This document shows positions 33,636-63,695 of a stretch of DNA of 64,000 bases, piece by piece. This stretch comes from Enterobacteria phage Aplg8, in the sequence record NC_054902.1. One strand, written 5' to 3'. How positions within the stretch are numbered: the first letter of the stretch is position 1; every line of letters starts with the position of its first letter. The notes under the pieces are model-generated. The model was not told the DNA's origin and did not search any database. It saw only the letters and a program-made list of their open reading frames with translations. A program made the position numbers and the translations under genes.

Positions 33636-36332
33636 TCAGCCAAACAGGAAGTCTAACGAAGCTTTTTCTTCATAGTCCATACCAGCCGATTCACACATAC
33701 CCGCAAGCGGTTTAACAAACGATTTTTGGAACAAAGTTGAGTAGTCAATCCAAGACAGTACGTCAGAACGAATTTCTTTTGGAAGTTCTGTGCCCGACGG
33801 CCAAGCAATACACTTGTCACCAAATGGATTTCCTTCACGTAATGGAAGAACCATTACTTTATTTCCATCCAAAATTGGAGCTACACCCAGACCATTAACA
33901 GCTCGACGATAAGTTAGCACACCACGAATATGGAACGGGCATTTAAATCCTGGCCAACCTTTATCATCATATTTCGCTATATCGTTCGCAGTTTTTACTT
34001 CAGCAATAACTTTATAGTCAAGTTGACGATATTCTTTCTCGAAGTTCTTGTAATATTCTTGGACAGACTCTTCACCTTCCTGAAGAATACGACGAATACT
34101 TTCTTCGAGAGCTTCTTGCACTGCTTTTGGTGTTGAACTCTGCTGAGTTTCCATACCCATGATTTTTAGATGCGGTTCAGCAAATCGCTTATCTTCCATA
34201 TCATAAACGTTCAGAGCATAACGCTTTTTCGCTTTCCAAAATCCGCCAACGCCTTTTGAACCAAGTGGAGGGCAAGAAATAGCTTCACGGTCCATATGCA
34301 TCAGATGCTCGCGGTTATTCATATAATCACATAACTCACGATATGCAACATCAATCATAGGTTCCATCTTTTTCTTACCGAACTGATTCATGAATTCAAC
34401 TAAATCGTTCTGCTCTTTGAATCGGTCAAGACCAACTTTTTCAATAACTTTATCTACACAAACATATACCGAATCAGTATCACCTGCTGCGATGAAATCT
34501 TCGCCATTAGTTCCACATACTTTATTCAGATACTCATTAATTTTACGAGCAATCCACTGAATACCGACTTGACCAAAAATTGTAATAGCAGTAGCATTTC
34601 GCAAATCATAGTAGCGGAAATGAATATTACCAAGAGCACCGTAAAGGCTGTTAATAAGAATTTTACGGTTCAGCTGATTTGTATTAGCAAGTGTAGCCGC
34701 TTTTTCACATTCTTCAATCAAACTATTGAGAACAGATTCAGTATAATTCGATAGTTCATTTAAGAAATCATCACTGAACTTAACATATCGTTCAACTTCA
34801 GGTTTAGTTGAACAAGACCCTGCGCCTTTCATAATAATCTTTTTAATAGCTTCGGCATTCATTTCTTCAGCGAACATTTTCTTTTTCCAATCTTTACGCT
34901 GGAAAAATACTTTAGCGATTTCCTTTGGAATGATACCTTCTTGATGCTTATCATACATCCATCCATTCGGAGAACAAGAATATTCATCACTCGGTTTAGG
35001 AGCTGTTCCTGCGATATATTCATGAATTGGATGAACTTTAAACTGCCCACGAATAGTCTCAGGACTAATGTTAACCTGACGAATAATGCTCGGATACAGA
35101 GACGTCAAGTCAAAACTCATAATATATCGACGAGCAATTGGTTTAGGTTCAAACACAAATGCACCCGGAAAACTCTGTTTAACATGCGAACCTTGTTGAG
35201 GAATAACCTTATGTTCACCTTTCAATGAGTTAAAAATAATAGCATCCCAGGTTTTAATAGGACTCATTACACCGGAAAAAGGCATTTTAGCGTAATAAGA
35301 CATACTTAAAACTAGATCGATAAACCCGCGAATTTTATCAATTGCTTGAACTGATTCTACGTCAATGATGTTATAACTAATGTATCGTTGATGATTAGTC
35401 TCACGAAGTTTATTAATAGGACCGTCGTATGGTAATTTACCTTTTTTGGTTTCATGTTGAGCAACTGATTCCAAAGAGAATGACGGCAAATTAGTAAAAG
35501 CGAATTTCTTGTACAAATCTAAATAATCAAGAATAGATACGCCATCAATAGAATAAATTTCTTTGCTACCGTACATATTTTGAATTAATTTAGATTTTAC
35601 TCGACCGATTGGAGAGAAGCGTTTCATACTACGTTCACCGAGAACCATTTTAACGCGATTCATGATATACGGAACGTCAAATCCCTCAATATTCCAACCG
35701 GTAAAAATAGCAGGTCGTTTCTGTTCCCAAAGATTAATATATTCCATGAGCATATCACGCTCATTATCGAATGGCATATAAATTACTCGGTCAAGAATTT
35801 CTTGAGGAACTTCATCACCACCTTCACAGTCAAGCTTAGCAGCTAACTTTGCATCCCATTTTGATACTGAACCATACATTGAATTCAAAAGGTCGAAAAC
35901 ATAAAAACGATCATCAATTGAATCGTAATGAGTGATAGCATCAATTTCATATTCAGCTTTCATTGGGTCAGGAAATTTATCACCAGTAACCTCAATGTCA
36001 CAGTTAGCTACACGAACAAATTTTCGGTCATAAACAATTTCTGAACCGTATGTATCACTGATATAAGCGAGTTTAAAATCGTTCATACCGAGAGCTTCGA
36101 GACCGATGTCTTCCATTCGTTTCATCCAATCTCGAGCATCTTTCATTGATGAAAATTTTTGAGGAGCGCAATTTTTACCATAGATGTCTTTGTACTTTGA
36201 CTCTTCCTTACAATGCCTAAACATAGTCGGAAGATATTCTACTTCACGAGTACGTTCCTTTCCGTTTTCATCAATATAACGTTCAACAATGTTATTTCCG
36301 ACTGTTTCGATAGAGATATAAAATTCTTTCAT
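33636..36332 (-). CDS. 43: gp43 DNA polymerase (family B)
   Basis: 898 aa (T4 gp43 length); MKEFYISIETVGNNIVERYIDENGKERTREVEYLPTMF N-terminus; exo and pol motifs (YGDTDS). Confidence 0.95.
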   Translation of the reverse strand: MKEFYISIETVGNNIVERYIDENGKERTREVEYLPTMFRHCKEESKYKDIYGKNCAPQKFSSMKDARDWMKRMEDIGLEALGMNDFKLAYISDTYGSEIVYDRKFVRVANCDIEVTGDKFPDPMKAEYEIDAITHYDSIDDRFYVFDLLNSMYGSVSKWDAKLAAKLDCEGGDEVPQEILDRVIYMPFDNERDMLMEYINLWEQKRPAIFTGWNIEGFDVPYIMNRVKMVLGERSMKRFSPIGRVKSKLIQNMYGSKEIYSIDGVSILDYLDLYKKFAFTNLPSFSLESVAQHETKKGKLPYDGPINKLRETNHQRYISYNIIDVESVQAIDKIRGFIDLVLSMSYYAKMPFSGVMSPIKTWDAIIFNSLKGEHKVIPQQGSHVKQSFPGAFVFEPKPIARRYIMSFDLTSLYPSIIRQVNISPETIRGQFKVHPIHEYIAGTAPKPSDEYSCSPNGWMYDKHQEGIIPKEIAKVFFQRKDWKKKMFAEEMNAEAIKKIIMKGAGSCSTKPEVERYVKFSDDFLNELSNYTESVLNSLIEECEKAATLANTNQLNRKILINSLYGALGNIHFRYYDLRNATAITIFGQVGIQWIARKINEYLNKVCGTNGEDFIAAGDTDSVYVCVDKVIEKVGLDRFKEQNDLVEFMNQFGKKKMEPMIDVAYRELCDYMNNREHLMHMDREAISCPPLGSKGVGGFWKAKKRYALNVYDMEDKRFAEPHLKIMGMETQQSSTPKAVQEALEESIRRILQEGEESVQEYYKNFEKEYRQLDYKVIAEVKTANDIAKYDDKGWPGFKCPFHIRGVLTYRRAVNGLGVAPILDGNKVMVLPLREGNPFGDKCIAWPSGTELPKEIRSDVLSWIDYSTLFQKSFVKPLAGMCESAGMDYEEKASLDFLFG

Positions 36333-54941: not shown

Positions 54942-55864
54942 TTCAGTACCTCAATAGCATCACGTAAACCATTTGCTTTGGCGGTTAAAGCCTTAATAAC
55001 TTTAGTATGCTCTTCAATCTGTTTTTCAACTTCAATCAAACGGGCACTGAGATATTCGCGTTCTTCTTTCATAGTATCATTCCCATGATTGGGCTTTGGC
55101 GTAGGTTTAAATTTATTAGGGTCCTTTAACTTAATAACAACTTTAGTTTCAAACAGTGAAAGACCATAATTCGTATTATCATCAAAGGATTCAACTACGT
55201 CCATTTTAGACAATAACGTACGAAGATTATAAGTCAAAGAACGAATCGTTTTATTATGTTTATTAGCTTCACATGGTTTCATATATGGAAGATTTTTATA
55301 TATTTCATGCGGAGCACAAACAATAATTGACAATTCAAATGGTCCATTCTGTGATGATGGAATGAATTTAGCCGTAACCCAATCTTTTACATTTACATTA
55401 ATAGTACGATCATCGCCATGACAAAACAGTCTACGAGAATGCTTAAAAAGCATATTCACATTATTATTAAATTCGTGTGAAAACTCACTGGCAAATTTTT
55501 CTTTACTATTTTTAGAAAACCATTCTTCTAAATAAGTTCTTTTCACGTCATTAATAATATTAAATGTAACAACATTAGCATTTGATACATTAGTCTCAAT
55601 GTAGCTTGGATACATAAATTTTTTAACATTATTAACAGCTATCACAGAAGATAGTAATCGGGAACGTTTGAACCACTCGAGCAAAGAACCAAGAGAATGT
55701 GAATACGCATTTTGTGTATCTTTACAAATATGGTTTTCCCATCCAATATAGTCTAAAAAATCACGAAGAATATTATTGATTGCTGCTCTGTGTCCTATCT
55801 GATAATTACGATGTTTAGTAATAAGACTGTCAAAATAATCAATATAATGTTTACGAGTTTTCAT
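54938..55864 (-). CDS. hypothetical protein, tandem paralogue A (C-terminal coiled coil)
   Basis: 308 aa; heptad-rich C-terminal 45 aa; weak similarity to next three ORFs. Confidence 0.6.
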   Translation of the reverse strand: MKTRKHYIDYFDSLITKHRNYQIGHRAAINNILRDFLDYIGWENHICKDTQNAYSHSLGSLLEWFKRSRLLSSVIAVNNVKKFMYPSYIETNVSNANVVTFNIINDVKRTYLEEWFSKNSKEKFASEFSHEFNNNVNMLFKHSRRLFCHGDDRTINVNVKDWVTAKFIPSSQNGPFELSIIVCAPHEIYKNLPYMKPCEANKHNKTIRSLTYNLRTLLSKMDVVESFDDNTNYGLSLFETKVVIKLKDPNKFKPTPKPNHGNDTMKEEREYLSARLIEVEKQIEEHTKVIKALTAKANGLRDAIEVLK

Positions 55865-55916
55865 GTTCTTCTCACTTGGTTAATGATTTATACTCCGAGC
55901 CATCCTTGGCTTTAAA

Positions 55917-56918
55917 TTACTTAATTAACTGTAAAGCTTGTTCAAGACGATCCAGGCGATTAACAGATTCTTCCCAAATCCTTTTAGCCTGCTCATATTC
56001 TTTCTGCGCTTTATTAGAAATTTCTAGAACTTCTTTATAAGCTTTTTCTAGTGCAATAACTTCTGGACGAATTTCTACAGGTTCAGGCGAATCATCAAGA
56101 CATTCCATTAGTTCCTCAAGGGTAGTTTCTTCTTTAGGAGTATTCACAATTTCATCACATTTTTGTTGGTAAATTTCTTTACTAGTAAGTGAATAAGTAC
56201 ATTTCACTTCACGAAGACTAACTACAATTTTATATCCTTCCCAACCGCATATATTCTTAAAAGGATATGTATGAATATTTTCTACTGTTTCCATACAAAG
56301 TAATGCGGTCTCTAATTGACGAGTTATAGTGCTAGCAATTGAGAAAAATTTATTAATGTTCTTTTGGTTAGTTTCTGGTGTAAAAAATCCATAATTCACA
56401 AAAATAGCTACTTTATTTTTATCAAGCTCATATTCTTTTATGATAATCATATCAGAAGCCAAAGGATGAATTTGACGATAATCGCCATAGCATAATTTAG
56501 AAGCTGATTTTAAAATTTGCTTTTTGAAAAGTCTGAAATTACTAATCCAACGACGAGTAAAAATATTCTCAGGGTCTTCTTTATTATTAAGATGATAAGA
56601 ATTAACATCACCGAACCAATTATATCCTACTACATCTTTAGTTCGTTTAATTTCTTTCCCAAAATTACCAAGAATATCCCGATTAACCAAATATGAAAGA
56701 AGACGAGACTCTTTAAAGGTTTTCTTGATAACATCTTTATCTACACGGCTAGAAATTTTACGAATTTCATGAATAAATTTAGTAGAAGAAACAATACTTG
56801 CATCAACACTATTGAGCCATTGATTGATAATAGAAAGAACGATATTTTGACCAAACATCGGTATAGCTTTATCATCAATAACGCTATTGAATGATTTGAT
56901 ATATTCGTTACGAGTCAT
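55917..56918 (-). CDS. hypothetical protein, tandem paralogue B
   Basis: 333 aa from MTRNEYIKSF with GAGGAG SD; coiled-coil C-terminus. Confidence 0.6.
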   Translation of the reverse strand: MTRNEYIKSFNSVIDDKAIPMFGQNIVLSIINQWLNSVDASIVSSTKFIHEIRKISSRVDKDVIKKTFKESRLLSYLVNRDILGNFGKEIKRTKDVVGYNWFGDVNSYHLNNKEDPENIFTRRWISNFRLFKKQILKSASKLCYGDYRQIHPLASDMIIIKEYELDKNKVAIFVNYGFFTPETNQKNINKFFSIASTITRQLETALLCMETVENIHTYPFKNICGWEGYKIVVSLREVKCTYSLTSKEIYQQKCDEIVNTPKEETTLEELMECLDDSPEPVEIRPEVIALEKAYKEVLEISNKAQKEYEQAKRIWEESVNRLDRLEQALQLIK

Positions 56919-60353: not shown

Positions 60354-61322
60354 TTATTTCAGAAGAGTAACCTCAGCGATTTCTTCCCAACCGTTTTTGT
60401 CGGTCATAATAAAGTCAGCAAGATAAAGAGCAGTACGCAGTGAAACATTGCGTAAACGATTAACATTGACTTTCATCCATGATAATGCTTTATAAGTTTC
60501 TTCATCAGAAAGACCGCGTTTTTGCATCATGTCAGTTGAAAGAATAACATCTTCAACCCTGACCATAATTTCTTCATTAGTGTGAACACCCAAATCCAAA
60601 TAAACTGAGCGGGACACTAATGCTTGTAAATGTGGAGCAAGTTTAGTACCACGGTCTAATTCGCGGTCAATATCAACGTTTGTGATAAAAACAATCGTTC
60701 CTTTAAATTCAAACTCACGCTCAATGCCTTTTTCTTCTAAGTAAGAAGATGCAGTGCTCCAGCAGACTTTACGGGTCTCTCCAGTGTCCAGAGCAGCTTT
60801 CAAAAGATTAAGAATGTCCATATCAGAGAAAACATCCACATCATCAATCAAAAGGACAGAATTCTCTTCACGATTATTCCAGAGCTGTTCATAAAGACCG
60901 ATACCAGAGATTTTACCGTTAATGCTTTTATATTCAATGTATCCAATATCATTTGCTTTATTTAAAGCTTTATCTAAAGAATACGTTTTACCAATGCCTG
61001 CCGCACCAGAGATAATTAATGAACGAATGTTTCCGTTAATAATACCATTCGTCATCATTCCCATAACATTAAATCTTTTATTAATGCGGGTTTTCATATC
61101 TTCATATGATTCTTTAACTTCTTCAACTTTTACACCATCATATGAAATGTCTGATTTGTAAACCCAAACACCGCGACGCTTACCGTCAATTTCAACAAAA
61201 ACTTTACCATCTCCTTGTGCATCCACCGGAGCATTATCTGGGAACCATTCGCCTAAGAGCTCAAAAGTTCCAGAGATTTCTTTGCCAAAGTAGATACCCT
61301 TATTGATAGTTACAGTTTTCAT
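60354..61322 (-). CDS. AAA+/P-loop ATPase of unknown function
   Basis: 322 aa; Walker A ISGAAGIGKT, Walker B-like LLIDDVD. Confidence 0.7.
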   Translation of the reverse strand: MKTVTINKGIYFGKEISGTFELLGEWFPDNAPVDAQGDGKVFVEIDGKRRGVWVYKSDISYDGVKVEEVKESYEDMKTRINKRFNVMGMMTNGIINGNIRSLIISGAAGIGKTYSLDKALNKANDIGYIEYKSINGKISGIGLYEQLWNNREENSVLLIDDVDVFSDMDILNLLKAALDTGETRKVCWSTASSYLEEKGIEREFEFKGTIVFITNVDIDRELDRGTKLAPHLQALVSRSVYLDLGVHTNEEIMVRVEDVILSTDMMQKRGLSDEETYKALSWMKVNVNRLRNVSLRTALYLADFIMTDKNGWEEIAEVTLLK

Positions 61323-61379
61323 TTTATTCTCCTTTGATTTGATAGGACTACTATAACATAGTCCTATCAGTTTGTATAC

Positions 61380-61580
61380 TTATTTTGACATTTCTTCGAT
61401 GTCACGACGATACCCGTCACGAACTTCACGAAGAGCTTCAAGGCCACACATAGGCTCGATACCAGTAATGTGAACTTGATTAATCTGATACTCTACATCT
61501 TCTAACTGAGCGAAAACATAACGACGTTCAGCTGCACAACCAGATTTAGCTTTACCGAAACGTTTATTCAAAGTAGTCAT
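61380..61580 (-). CDS. hypothetical protein
   Basis: 66-aa ORF with GGAGA SD, downstream of early promoter. Confidence 0.5.
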   Translation of the reverse strand: MTTLNKRFGKAKSGCAAERRYVFAQLEDVEYQINQVHITGIEPMCGLEALREVRDGYRRDIEEMSK

Positions 61581-61618: not shown

Positions 61619-61648
61619 ATAGTATCAACAACTACAGACCATGTAAAC
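61619..61648 (-). promoter_or_regulatory. early promoter
   Basis: GTTTAC (61648..61643) - 18 bp - TACTAT (61624..61619). Confidence 0.55.
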
Positions 61649-61667: not shown

Positions 61668-61697
61668 GAAATAAAAAAAGGGAGCCCGAAGGCTCCC
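61668..61697 (-). terminator. intrinsic terminator after nucleotidyltransferase gene
   Basis: gggagcc-cgaa-ggctccc hairpin 61680..61697 followed on mRNA by UUUUUUUAUUU; 3 nt after stop. Confidence 0.7.
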
Positions 61698-61699
61698 TA

Positions 61700-62713
61700 T
61701 CATTTATAATAACTTCGGTGGTTTTCAAGATAGACCTTCTCAAGGAAGTCATCCCAGAAACTCATGTCTACTGTTTTAGGCATACCGTTCTTAGAAGCTT
61801 CAGTAGATGCTGCTTCTACTTGATCGACCACATCTTCTAAAAACTCTTGAACAGTTTTAAATGGATGCTTACCCAGCTTCACGTCGAGAATAAATGGAGC
61901 ATCTTGGAGTGGATAAACCAAGTCACCAGTTTTGTAAATTTCCAATAGTTGGAGTCCACCACGGCAAGCATGACTCAGAGCTTTCCAGTCAATACCTTCA
62001 TTGGCTTCGGCCTTACGAGCACGTTCACCATATTCAGCATCTAATTTGTTCAGTGACTGCTTAAGCTCAATAAGAGAAAGCGTTGTCTGATATTTACGAC
62101 CCAGCACTGTATAGAACGTTTGTGGACCTGTTTTCTCATGATTATGGAATACCCATTCACAGAACTCGTTTTCTGGAAGACGATGCTTAATATCTTCAAC
62201 TTTAATGCGACGCTGCTTAATAGAACCATCTTCTTGGTAATCAACCCATTGCTCAGGGATTTGATTAACTACTTTCAATACATCGCGTAATGCAGCCAAA
62301 CGAGAACCCTTGACACCATATTTAGAAGCTTGCTTGCGAACATATCCTAAATAGGATTTCATGTTAGTCGTATAAAAACGAGAACGGTTGTCTTGAATAA
62401 ACTTCCACACGTCAGGCAAATCAGATTTAACCACTAGTTCAGGTGGAGTGTGAAGCATATCCAATGCTACAGTTTCACCATCTGCTGCTAATTTAAAGAA
62501 ATATTTAAGACTGTATAGTTCATGGTCAATATCATCTTTAGTGTTTTTAGATGATGTGTTGTTAGTGTTTTTACTCATATGCTCTTTAACATTTCCGATA
62601 AGAATATCGCGAGCAGGAGGAACAAAGATTTCTTTAAAATCTACATCAGATTCTGGGGTAGAAGTTCCATAAAGATGACTACCAAAATAGCTTTTCATTA
62701 CTGTTTTCATCAT
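61700..62713 (-). CDS. minimal (MNT/pol-beta-type) nucleotidyltransferase domain protein
   Basis: 337 aa; N-terminal motif FGSHLYGTSTPESDVDF fits the GS-x9-13-DxD NTase signature. Confidence 0.6.
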   Translation of the reverse strand: MMKTVMKSYFGSHLYGTSTPESDVDFKEIFVPPARDILIGNVKEHMSKNTNNTSSKNTKDDIDHELYSLKYFFKLAADGETVALDMLHTPPELVVKSDLPDVWKFIQDNRSRFYTTNMKSYLGYVRKQASKYGVKGSRLAALRDVLKVVNQIPEQWVDYQEDGSIKQRRIKVEDIKHRLPENEFCEWVFHNHEKTGPQTFYTVLGRKYQTTLSLIELKQSLNKLDAEYGERARKAEANEGIDWKALSHACRGGLQLLEIYKTGDLVYPLQDAPFILDVKLGKHPFKTVQEFLEDVVDQVEAASTEASKNGMPKTVDMSFWDDFLEKVYLENHRSYYK

Positions 62714-63171
62714 TCAGCCTTATATTCAATAACAGGACATACTTTAGCTTTACGAGCTTTTAAAAATTCAACGATAACCGATTTCTTGGGTTGAATAGGA
62801 GGTAAACCTTTATACGCCCTATCAATATTTTCTACGTGTAAAGCATAATCCTTTTTCCATTTATAATCTTTATATTTTTCACGCAAATGTGCAGGAATAA
62901 CAAATGAACCGATAATAAGTAAAACAACCAAAAGCGCAAGTATAAATGCTGATGGAAGCAAAGTCCATAAACTACCAAAAATAAGCCAACGTTGTAGGCT
63001 TTCTGCACAAATAATTGTTAGCCCTACGAGTATAGCACATCCAAAAATAGAAACGAAAAATGTAGGAATGACAATAGACCAAAAATATGCGCATAGTGTC
63101 TTAGGTCGTTGCCATTCATCGTTAAACAATTTGAATAATTTATAGTGCCAAGAGTTTTCATTAATAATCAT
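62710..63171 (-). CDS. integral membrane protein
   Basis: 153 aa with 3-4 predicted TM helices. Confidence 0.5.
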   Translation of the reverse strand: MIINENSWHYKLFKLFNDEWQRPKTLCAYFWSIVIPTFFVSIFGCAILVGLTIICAESLQRWLIFGSLWTLLPSAFILALLVVLLIIGSFVIPAHLREKYKDYKWKKDYALHVENIDRAYKGLPPIQPKKSVIVEFLKARKAKVCPVIEYKAE

Positions 63172-63173
63172 AA

Positions 63174-63695
63174 TTATCCTCTCATTGAAGGCGTAACAGT
63201 TGTTAAATACTTAATCATAGCTTCAGCTTCTGATTTTGATAATGAAATTTCTCCATTGTTTTGACGAATAGAAATAAAATCCGGATGACGGTCACCACCA
63301 GCTTTTAAAACACACATATAAGTATCAACTTCATCTTCAATATTTGAAATGATTGAAGCAGTTCCACATGAATGCGGTTTTTGATAAATCAATGCAGCTT
63401 TTCTTCCGCCATTTGACTGTTCATAAACTTTTAATACATCAAACAAATCACTTCTTTTATCAATAGCTAAAATGTTATTTTCATCTTCAATGTTAAATCC
63501 TTCGGATACTTCATAAAGTGTCACCCATAAATCGCCAATATCAATAACAGCGTTCACTTTTCCATGACTTTCAAGAGCATGACAAATTTTCTTGATTTCG
63601 TCATAACTCATTTTAATAATATCATCTCCTTGAATAAGAAAGATGTCATTTTTAAATTCAACACGAATTAAACCACTTCCACTTGAAATAAACAT
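63174..63695 (-). CDS. hypothetical protein
   Basis: 173-aa ORF. Confidence 0.5.
   Translation of the reverse strand: MFISSGSGLIRVEFKNDIFLIQGDDIIKMSYDEIKKICHALESHGKVNAVIDIGDLWVTLYEVSEGFNIEDENNILAIDKRSDLFDVLKVYEQSNGGRKAALIYQKPHSCGTASIISNIEDEVDTYMCVLKAGGDRHPDFISIRQNNGEISLSKSEAEAMIKYLTTVTPSMRG

What the first reader, a model, noticed from the sequence alone, without database searches (positions are those of the whole stretch)
61700..62713. MNT-type nucleotidyltransferase gene ending a transcription unit
The 337-aa product begins with FGSHLYGTSTPESDVDF, matching the G[GS]-x(9-13)-D-x-[DE] signature of minimal/pol-beta nucleotidyltransferases, the fold used by cGAS/DncV-like, CCA-adding, antibiotic and toxin-antitoxin NTases. 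The gene is followed 3 nt after its stop by a textbook intrinsic terminator and then a fresh early promoter. A phage NTase with a long C-terminal extension could modify nucleic acid or protein, or produce or intercept nucleotide signals.
Basis: partly seen in the sequence, partly recalled or inferred. Interest (0 to 1): 0.6.

Follow-up and report, generated by a model that had tools for sequence, protein, structure and literature searches.

The report
T4 NrdC.11-type RNA-repair nucleotidyltransferase gene
This is the ordinary, already annotated T4 phage gene nrdC.11, a member of the RlaP family of enzymes that add one or two nucleotides to broken RNA ends, so it is a correct but not a new observation.

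Summary
A 337-aa ORF lies on the minus strand at 61700..62713. It carries G11-S12-x10-D23-x-D25, is followed by a strong hairpin terminator, and then by a T4 early-type promoter. The window is a T4-like phage (Tequatrovirus), and the protein is 97% identical to T4 NrdC.11, which RefSeq already annotates as "nucleotidyltransferase".

It is not a minimal (MNT) NTase. [quoted passage not shown] A December 2025 preprint showed that bacterial RlaPs add 1-2 NMPs to RNA 3'-OH ends and help restore trimmed tRNA, and it names T4 NrdC.11 as a family member.

Here, G11, S12, D23, D25 and D63 are invariant in 57 homologues of 34-55% identity. An AlphaFold model (pLDDT 94) shows a Pol-beta NTase domain plus a helical domain. 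Bacterial relatives sit directly beside Pnkp, RtcB/RtcA, Hen1, Ro60 and Rnl1-type ligase genes.

The most likely role is to restore nucleotides on broken tRNA, working with T4 Pnk and RNA ligases. This has not been tested for the phage enzyme.

Two minor points may be new. This clade carries about 100 extra residues compared with short RlaPs, and in bacteria it is often paired in tandem with a short RlaP.

Novelty: already known. Interest: low.

The parts
61700..62713 (-). CDS of 337 aa (336 aa if started at the second Met, as in T4). Ortholog of T4 nrdC.11 and an RlaP-family (PF10127) nucleotidyltransferase.
   Evidence: ORF list; 97% aa identity to T4 NP_049709; Pfam RlaP 43.8 bits against cut-off 23; PHROG 388 'nucleotidyltransferase', E 6e-138.
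62375..62713 (-). N-terminal Pol-beta NTase domain, residues 1 to about 113 (strands 3-10, 24-31, 45-49, 62-68).
62639..62683 (-). G11-S12-x10-D23-x-D25 signature: the helix-turn and the first two catalytic carboxylates.
   Evidence: G11, S12, G16, S22, D23 and D25 are invariant in 57 sequences of 34-55% identity.
62525..62527 (-). D63, the probable third catalytic Asp, on strand 62-68.
   Evidence: Invariant in A1. It aligns with the invariant Asp of 'LDxNGWD' in short RlaPs. The catalytic assignment itself is inferred.
62006..62305 (-). Module specific to this clade, residues about 137-236: helix 135-151, a beta-rich part 155-209 that is variable in sequence, and helix 214-236 with invariant R231.
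   Evidence: AF2 secondary structure. This is the most indel-rich part of alignment A1. Short RlaPs are 252-277 aa and the Pfam model has 249 positions, whereas this clade is mostly 310-350 aa. Calling it an insertion is inferred.
61703..62005 (-). C-terminal helical bundle, residues 237-337, with invariant K244, H248, R251 and P268 (DWKAxSHAxR).
61669..61698 (-). Intrinsic terminator: 8-bp stem, UUCG loop and U-rich tail.
   Evidence: Identical in T4 and G50 apart from one T in the tail, and annotated as a terminator in G50.
61619..61648 (-). T4 early-type promoter, GTTTACA-N17-TACTAT, for the next transcription unit.
   Evidence: 17 sites against about 1 expected, all on the minus strand. 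Hexamers conserved in T4 and G50.

Best explanation
The gene encodes the T4 NrdC.11 ortholog. It is a Pol-beta-superfamily nucleotidyltransferase of the RlaP family. The proposed mechanism is as follows. The N-terminal domain binds NTP and two divalent metal ions (Mn2+ in characterised RlaPs) through D23, D25 and D63. The helical C-terminal region, with invariant R231, K244, H248 and R251, forms the other wall of a cleft that holds an RNA 3' end. [quoted passage not shown] In infection, its likely substrates are tRNA halves produced by host anticodon nucleases that also trim a nucleotide (the RloC type). T4 Pnk would first convert the broken ends to 3'-OH and 5'-P. NrdC.11 would then replace the lost nucleotide, and T4 Rnl1 or Rnl2 would seal the break. 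The gene is expressed as the last cistron of an early-promoter unit, closed by a strong terminator. What is shown: family membership, invariant catalytic residues, the predicted fold, the RNA-repair neighbourhood of bacterial relatives, and the transcription signals. What is inferred: activity of the phage enzyme itself, its in vivo substrate, and its cooperation with Pnk and the RNA ligases.
Against: No experiment exists on the phage enzyme. In T4-like genomes the gene is not adjacent to pseT, rnlA or rnlB, and nothing in this 64-kb window was identified as an RNA-repair gene. Only the N-terminal ~130 residues align significantly to Pfam RlaP or to short RlaPs. The C-terminal halves do not align significantly (E 0.23), so substrate specificity could differ. 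RNA-repair neighbours were found in only a minority of the 69 bacterial loci examined. The nrdC.11-mobD.3 region can be deleted from T4 (PMC9825161), so any role is conditional. The RlaP paper is a preprint, and its own authors say that the in vivo role is unproven.
Confidence: 0.6

Rival explanations
1. It is an RNA 3'-tailing enzyme whose purpose is not repair. For example, it could add untemplated nucleotides to host or phage RNAs (mRNA, tRNA 3' ends, small RNAs) to change their stability or to block host nucleases or sensors.
For: RlaPs label many E. coli RNA species in vitro and show little NTP specificity (PMC12776372). The phage gene is not linked to ligase genes in T4-like genomes. Most bacterial loci of this clade lack recognisable repair neighbours. 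The clade-specific ~100-residue module could confer a different substrate.
Against: Characterised RlaPs prefer the 3' end of the 5' tRNA half in a nicked-tRNA mimic over the acceptor end. Members of the NrdC.11 clade lie directly next to Pnkp, an Rnl1-type ligase fusion, and RtcB/RtcA/Hen1.
Confidence: 0.2
2. It makes or mimics a nucleotide or oligonucleotide signal. One version is a HalB-like oligodeoxyadenylate synthase that would keep a Hailong-type host defence switched off. Another is a cGAS/DncV-like signal synthase or decoy.
Confidence: 0.06
3. It nucleotidylylates a protein or a small molecule, like MNT antitoxins that AMPylate HEPN toxins or like aminoglycoside NTases.
Against: NTP_transf_2 scores below its cut-off (13.7 against 21 bits). 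E. coli proteins are not substrates of characterised RlaPs. No partner toxin gene is evident beside the gene: the neighbours are a membrane protein and small ORFs of unknown function.
Confidence: 0.05

Closest known systems
T4 NrdC.11 (NP_049709; T4 55435-56445)
   Same: 97% amino-acid identity over the full length. Same position upstream of the nrdC.10 homologue. Same terminator and same downstream early promoter.
   Different: In T4 the HNH homing endonuclease gene mobD lies directly upstream and overlaps the start. Here a 153-aa membrane-protein ORF takes that place. Here, as in phage G50, a 66-aa ORF is inserted between the promoter and nrdC.10.
RlaP family (Pfam PF10127), characterised members PfRlaP and PaRlaP (PMC12776372)
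   Same: The N-terminal NTase domain has GS...DxD and a third Asp. Pfam scores above the gathering cut-off. There is a two-domain plan with a helical C-terminal region. Relatives sit in RNA-repair operons.
   Different: The protein has about 337 aa, against 252-277 aa for the short RlaPs encoded next to its bacterial relatives. About 100 extra residues include a beta-rich segment. Beyond residue ~135 it does not align significantly with the Pfam model or with short RlaPs. In the preprint it falls in SSN cluster 5, whereas the characterised enzymes are in cluster 1a. Its activity is untested.
HalB (Hailong defence NTase, PDB 9dbh) and kanamycin nucleotidyltransferase (1kny/6nlt)
   Different: Identity is 8-15%. 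There is no match from sequence models. Their products and substrates differ (oligo-dA, aminoglycosides).
CCA-adding enzymes and other template-independent RNA 3' NTases
   Same: Pol-beta superfamily and untemplated addition to an RNA 3'-OH, as a mode of action.
   Different: No Pfam match to the CCA-adding enzyme family (PolyA_pol) appeared among the hits at E<=0.1. RlaPs show little nucleotide specificity and add only 1-2 nt.

Membership tests
RlaP (Pfam PF10127) | Score above the Pfam gathering cut-off | tested here: met
   43.8 bits against 23, E 3e-11. Only residues 7-135 match, on profile positions 23-142 of 249. All 57 aligned homologues also match, best E 2e-19.
RlaP (Pfam PF10127) | hG[GS] motif plus three conserved catalytic Asp residues | tested here: met
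   G11, S12, D23, D25 and D63 are invariant in 57 sequences. D63 aligns with the invariant Asp of short RlaPs.
RlaP (Pfam PF10127) | NTase domain plus C-terminal helical domain forming a cleft, with a last helix packing back on the NTase domain (PfRlaP crystal structure) | tested here: inconclusive
   The AF2 model has an NTase domain, a helical bundle and a terminal helix 317-336. No RlaP structure is in the PDB copy. The C-terminal halves do not align significantly. The alignments to shorter phage NTases span most of the query, about 320-360 columns, but the family of those proteins was not verified.
RlaP (Pfam PF10127) | Gene neighbourhood with RNA ligases or RNA-repair genes | tested here: inconclusive
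   Not met at this locus: the neighbours are small ORFs, a membrane protein and an AAA protein. Met for bacterial members of the same clade, with Pnkp, an Rnl1-type fusion, and RtcB/RtcA/Hen1/Ro60, but only in a minority of 69 loci.
RlaP (Pfam PF10127) | Adds 1-2 NMPs to RNA 3'-OH | not testable with these tools
   This is biochemistry. It has been shown only for two Pseudomonas enzymes (PMC12776372).
MNT / minimal nucleotidyltransferase (NTP_transf_2, PF01909; HEPN-MNT antitoxins) | Match to the NTP_transf_2 model above its cut-off; a small single-domain protein with an adjacent HEPN partner | tested here: not met
   13.7 bits against a cut-off of 21. The protein has 337 aa in several domains. 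Neither flanking ORF had a HEPN match among its Pfam hits at E<=0.1, and none of the four ORFs scanned had a PADLOC hit.
CD-NTase / cGAS-DncV-like and other defence NTases | Match to the defence-system NTase models | tested here: not met
   No PADLOC family at E<=0.01 and no such Pfam hit.
T4 early transcription unit | Early-type promoter consensus and an intrinsic terminator conserved in T4 | tested here: met

The most novel reading that the evidence does not exclude
NrdC.11-type proteins would be a distinct 'long' RlaP subfamily carrying an extra module of about 100 residues that includes a beta-rich part. In bacteria this long form usually works as a pair with a canonical short RlaP next to Pnkp/Hen1 or RtcB/RtcA/Ro60. 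In T4-like phages the long form alone would be the missing nucleotide-restoring third step of the classical Pnk-Rnl1 tRNA repair pathway, allowing the phage to defeat anticodon nucleases of the RloC type that excise the wobble base.
Probability: 0.35. Interest if true: 0.5.

Novelty: already known. Interest (0 to 1): 0.15.

Why it matters
T4 is the phage in which RNA repair was discovered, through Pnk and Rnl1 acting against the PrrC nuclease. A third T4 enzyme that restores nucleotides removed by "smart" anticodon nucleases would complete that pathway and explain why the gene is kept in hundreds of T4-like phages. The gene, its family and this hypothesis are already in the literature (PMC12776372, PMC7824862) and in RefSeq annotation, so this finding adds no new entity. 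What this analysis adds is supporting detail: conservation of the catalytic residues, a confident structural model, the RNA-repair context of bacterial relatives, and the long/short tandem pairing.

Tried and rejected
- Sequence searches of the PDB with the protein, with its family profile and with a short-RlaP profile found no relative. The PfRlaP crystal structure is therefore not available for comparison.
- The afdb50 fold library was not installed.
No model-to-model comparison was possible.
- NCBIfam and PADLOC gave no hits.
- hhalign of the C-terminal halves of long and short RlaPs placed K244-x3-H248-x2-R251 on the short-RlaP K-x3-Y-x2-R. This was not significant (E 0.23), so C-terminal homology remains a suggestion.
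- D85 was first considered as the third catalytic carboxylate and then rejected. It lies in a helix (81-87) and is not invariant. D63 lies on a strand, is invariant, and aligns with the invariant Asp of short RlaPs.
- The reading as a MNT antitoxin, a CD-NTase or a CCA-adding enzyme was rejected on model scores.
- No second RlaP was found in the window, and no short RlaP was found in Escherichia T4-like phages.

Full report
**Observation.** The ORF exists as described, but on the minus strand at 61700..62713. It encodes 337 aa beginning MMKTVMKSYFGSHLYGTSTPESDVDF. The motif is G11-S12, ten residues, then D23-x-D25. The loose regex matches only three times in the six-frame translation of the window; the other two matches are in the 898-aa ORF at 33636..36332. 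The motif alone is therefore suggestive, not decisive.

One nucleotide after the TGA stop (61702..61700) comes an 8-bp hairpin with six G-C pairs and a UUCG loop, at 61698..61679. It is followed by U6-A-U3. The centroid structure, the hairpin alone, has -16.2 kcal/mol (MFE of the 43-nt stretch -16.5), with z = -3.8 against shuffles. About 20 nt further on lies GTTTACA-N17-TACTAT with an upstream TG, at 61648..61619. The pattern GTTTAC-N18-TAnnnT occurs 17 times in the window, always on the minus strand, against about one expected by chance. This is the T4 early-promoter class.

The start codon overlaps the stop of the upstream ORF (ATGA). In the collinear phage G50 the nearest upstream early-type promoter lies about 2.1 kb upstream, with six ORFs in between.

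**Identity.** The region is 98% identical in DNA to Shigella phage ESh31. It matches 721 phage records, mostly Escherichia and Shigella Tequatroviruses. The protein is 97% identical (327 of 336 residues) to T4 NrdC.11, which RefSeq calls "nucleotidyltransferase". The terminator and the promoter hexamers are conserved in T4. A COG3541 nucleotidyltransferase match for nrdC.11 was already reported in 2006 (PMC1524935). The nrdC.11-mobD.3 region can be deleted from T4 (PMC9825161).

**Family.**
- The generic NTP_transf_2 model does not pass: 13.7 against 21 bits.
- PHROG 388 "nucleotidyltransferase" matches over the full length.
- NCBIfam and PADLOC give nothing.

An exhaustive HMMER search found 3,507 cluster representatives at E<=1e-3 and 835 at E<=1e-30. 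Nearly all of the best 150 listed have 300-370 aa and align end to end. In an alignment of 57 of them (34-55% identity), the invariant residues are G11, S12, G16, S22, D23, D25, N57, D63, W103, Y124, Y132, R231, K244, H248, R251 and P268. All 57 match PF10127.

**Structure.** The AlphaFold2 model built from this alignment is confident, with pLDDT 94.2 and pTM 0.82. It contains:
- an alpha/beta NTase domain, residues 1 to about 113;
- helices 119-151;
- a beta-rich segment, 155-209;
- a helical bundle, 214-336.

**What the family does.** A December 2025 preprint (PMC12776372) characterised two Pseudomonas RlaPs.
- They add one or two NMPs (or dNMPs) to the 3'-OH of RNA.
- They do not act on DNA or protein.
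- They prefer Mn2+.
- They favour the 3' end of the 5' half in a nicked-tRNA mimic.
- They raise aminoacylation of a repaired tRNA that had lost one anticodon-loop nucleotide.

The authors propose that RlaP is the antidote to "smart" ribotoxins such as RloC. They explicitly place T4 NrdC.11 in the family (cluster 5) and mark its function as unknown. Iyer et al. 2021 (PMC7824862) made the same prediction for jumbo-phage RlaPs.

Relatives of the NrdC.11 clade (34-54% identity) occur in at least 156 bacterial and archaeal genome loci. In the 69 loci that could be analysed, the context is varied. The most frequent immediate downstream gene is a canonical short RlaP of about 255 aa: 11 loci in the Pfam scan, of which 10 were aligned. 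Some loci are unmistakable RNA-repair operons:
- L034 (Nitrosospira): Ro60, one unassigned ORF, RtcB, RtcA, long RlaP, short RlaP, Hen1.
- L055 (Asticcacaulis): Pnkp, long RlaP, short RlaP.
- L051 (Rickettsiales): a kinase/phosphatase/Rnl1-type ligase fusion, then long RlaP.

The last two are bacterial counterparts of T4 Pnk plus Rnl1. This supports the idea that the phage enzyme works with those T4 proteins, although the phage genes are not adjacent.

**Differences from characterised RlaPs.** Profile-profile comparison aligns only profile columns 9-136 (residues 2-131) to short RlaPs (probability 93.8%, E 1.8e-7). The C-terminal halves do not align significantly. Their best local match puts K244-x3-H248-x2-R251 on the short-RlaP motif K-x3-Y-x2-R (E 0.23). 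The simplest reading, which is inferred, is that the NrdC.11 clade is a long RlaP with an extra module of about 100 residues (137-236). The window holds no second RlaP. Short RlaPs in phages are found in phiKZ-like and other non-coliphage groups, not in Escherichia T4-like phages.

The best explanation is an RlaP-type RNA 3'-terminal nucleotidyltransferase that acts in tRNA repair together with T4 Pnk and the RNA ligases (confidence about 0.6). Membership of the RlaP family and catalytic competence are much more certain than the in vivo role. The rivals are non-repair RNA tailing (0.2), HalB-like or signal synthesis (0.06) and protein or small-molecule nucleotidylylation (0.05).

Novelty: already known. 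Interest: low (0.15).

Noticed in passing
window 61339-61580 (minus strand): A 66-aa ORF (61380..61580, phrog_6200, function unknown) and a 12-bp hairpin (61339..61370) lie between the early promoter and the nrdC.10 homologue. Phage G50 has the same insert. T4 lacks it, and there the promoter directly precedes nrdC.10.
   Followed up: partly
window 62710-63695 (minus strand): In T4 the HNH homing endonuclease gene mobD lies directly upstream of nrdC.11. Here that position holds a 153-aa predicted membrane protein (phrog_944), whose stop overlaps the NTase start (ATGA). The next ORF upstream (173 aa) is a 25%-identical relative of T4 MobD.1.
   Followed up: partly
window, 17 sites from 2421 to 61648 (minus strand): GTTTAC-N18-TAnnnT occurs 17 times, all on the minus strand, against about 1 expected by chance. 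This gives a map of T4 early-type promoters across the window.
   Followed up: no
window 60354-61322 (minus strand): The downstream gene is the nrdC.10 homologue, 322 aa. It has only sub-threshold P-loop/AAA and STAND-NTPase Pfam matches, best AAA_14 at 23.5 bits against a cut-off of 27, and matches phrog_1250 of unknown function.
   Followed up: no
L034 6004-7746; L055 6001-7802; L053, L058, L060, L068, L072, L007, L019, L035: In bacteria an NrdC.11-like long RlaP (about 320 aa) is immediately followed on the same strand by a canonical short RlaP (about 255 aa) in 11 of 69 loci by the Pfam scan (10 listed here and aligned). In some loci the pair lies inside Pnkp/Hen1 or RtcB/RtcA/Ro60 operons. 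I did not find this tandem long/short pairing mentioned in the RlaP papers I read.
   Followed up: partly
L053 4008-5930; L033 6964-8892: RecQ-like helicase genes lie directly next to the long RlaP in two bacterial loci. I have no explanation for this.
   Followed up: no
public annotations of the orthologs: Many GenBank and UniRef records call this protein 'thioredoxin', and one calls it 'HNH homing endonuclease'. These look like errors carried over from the gene name nrdC.11 and from the neighbouring mobD gene.
   Followed up: no
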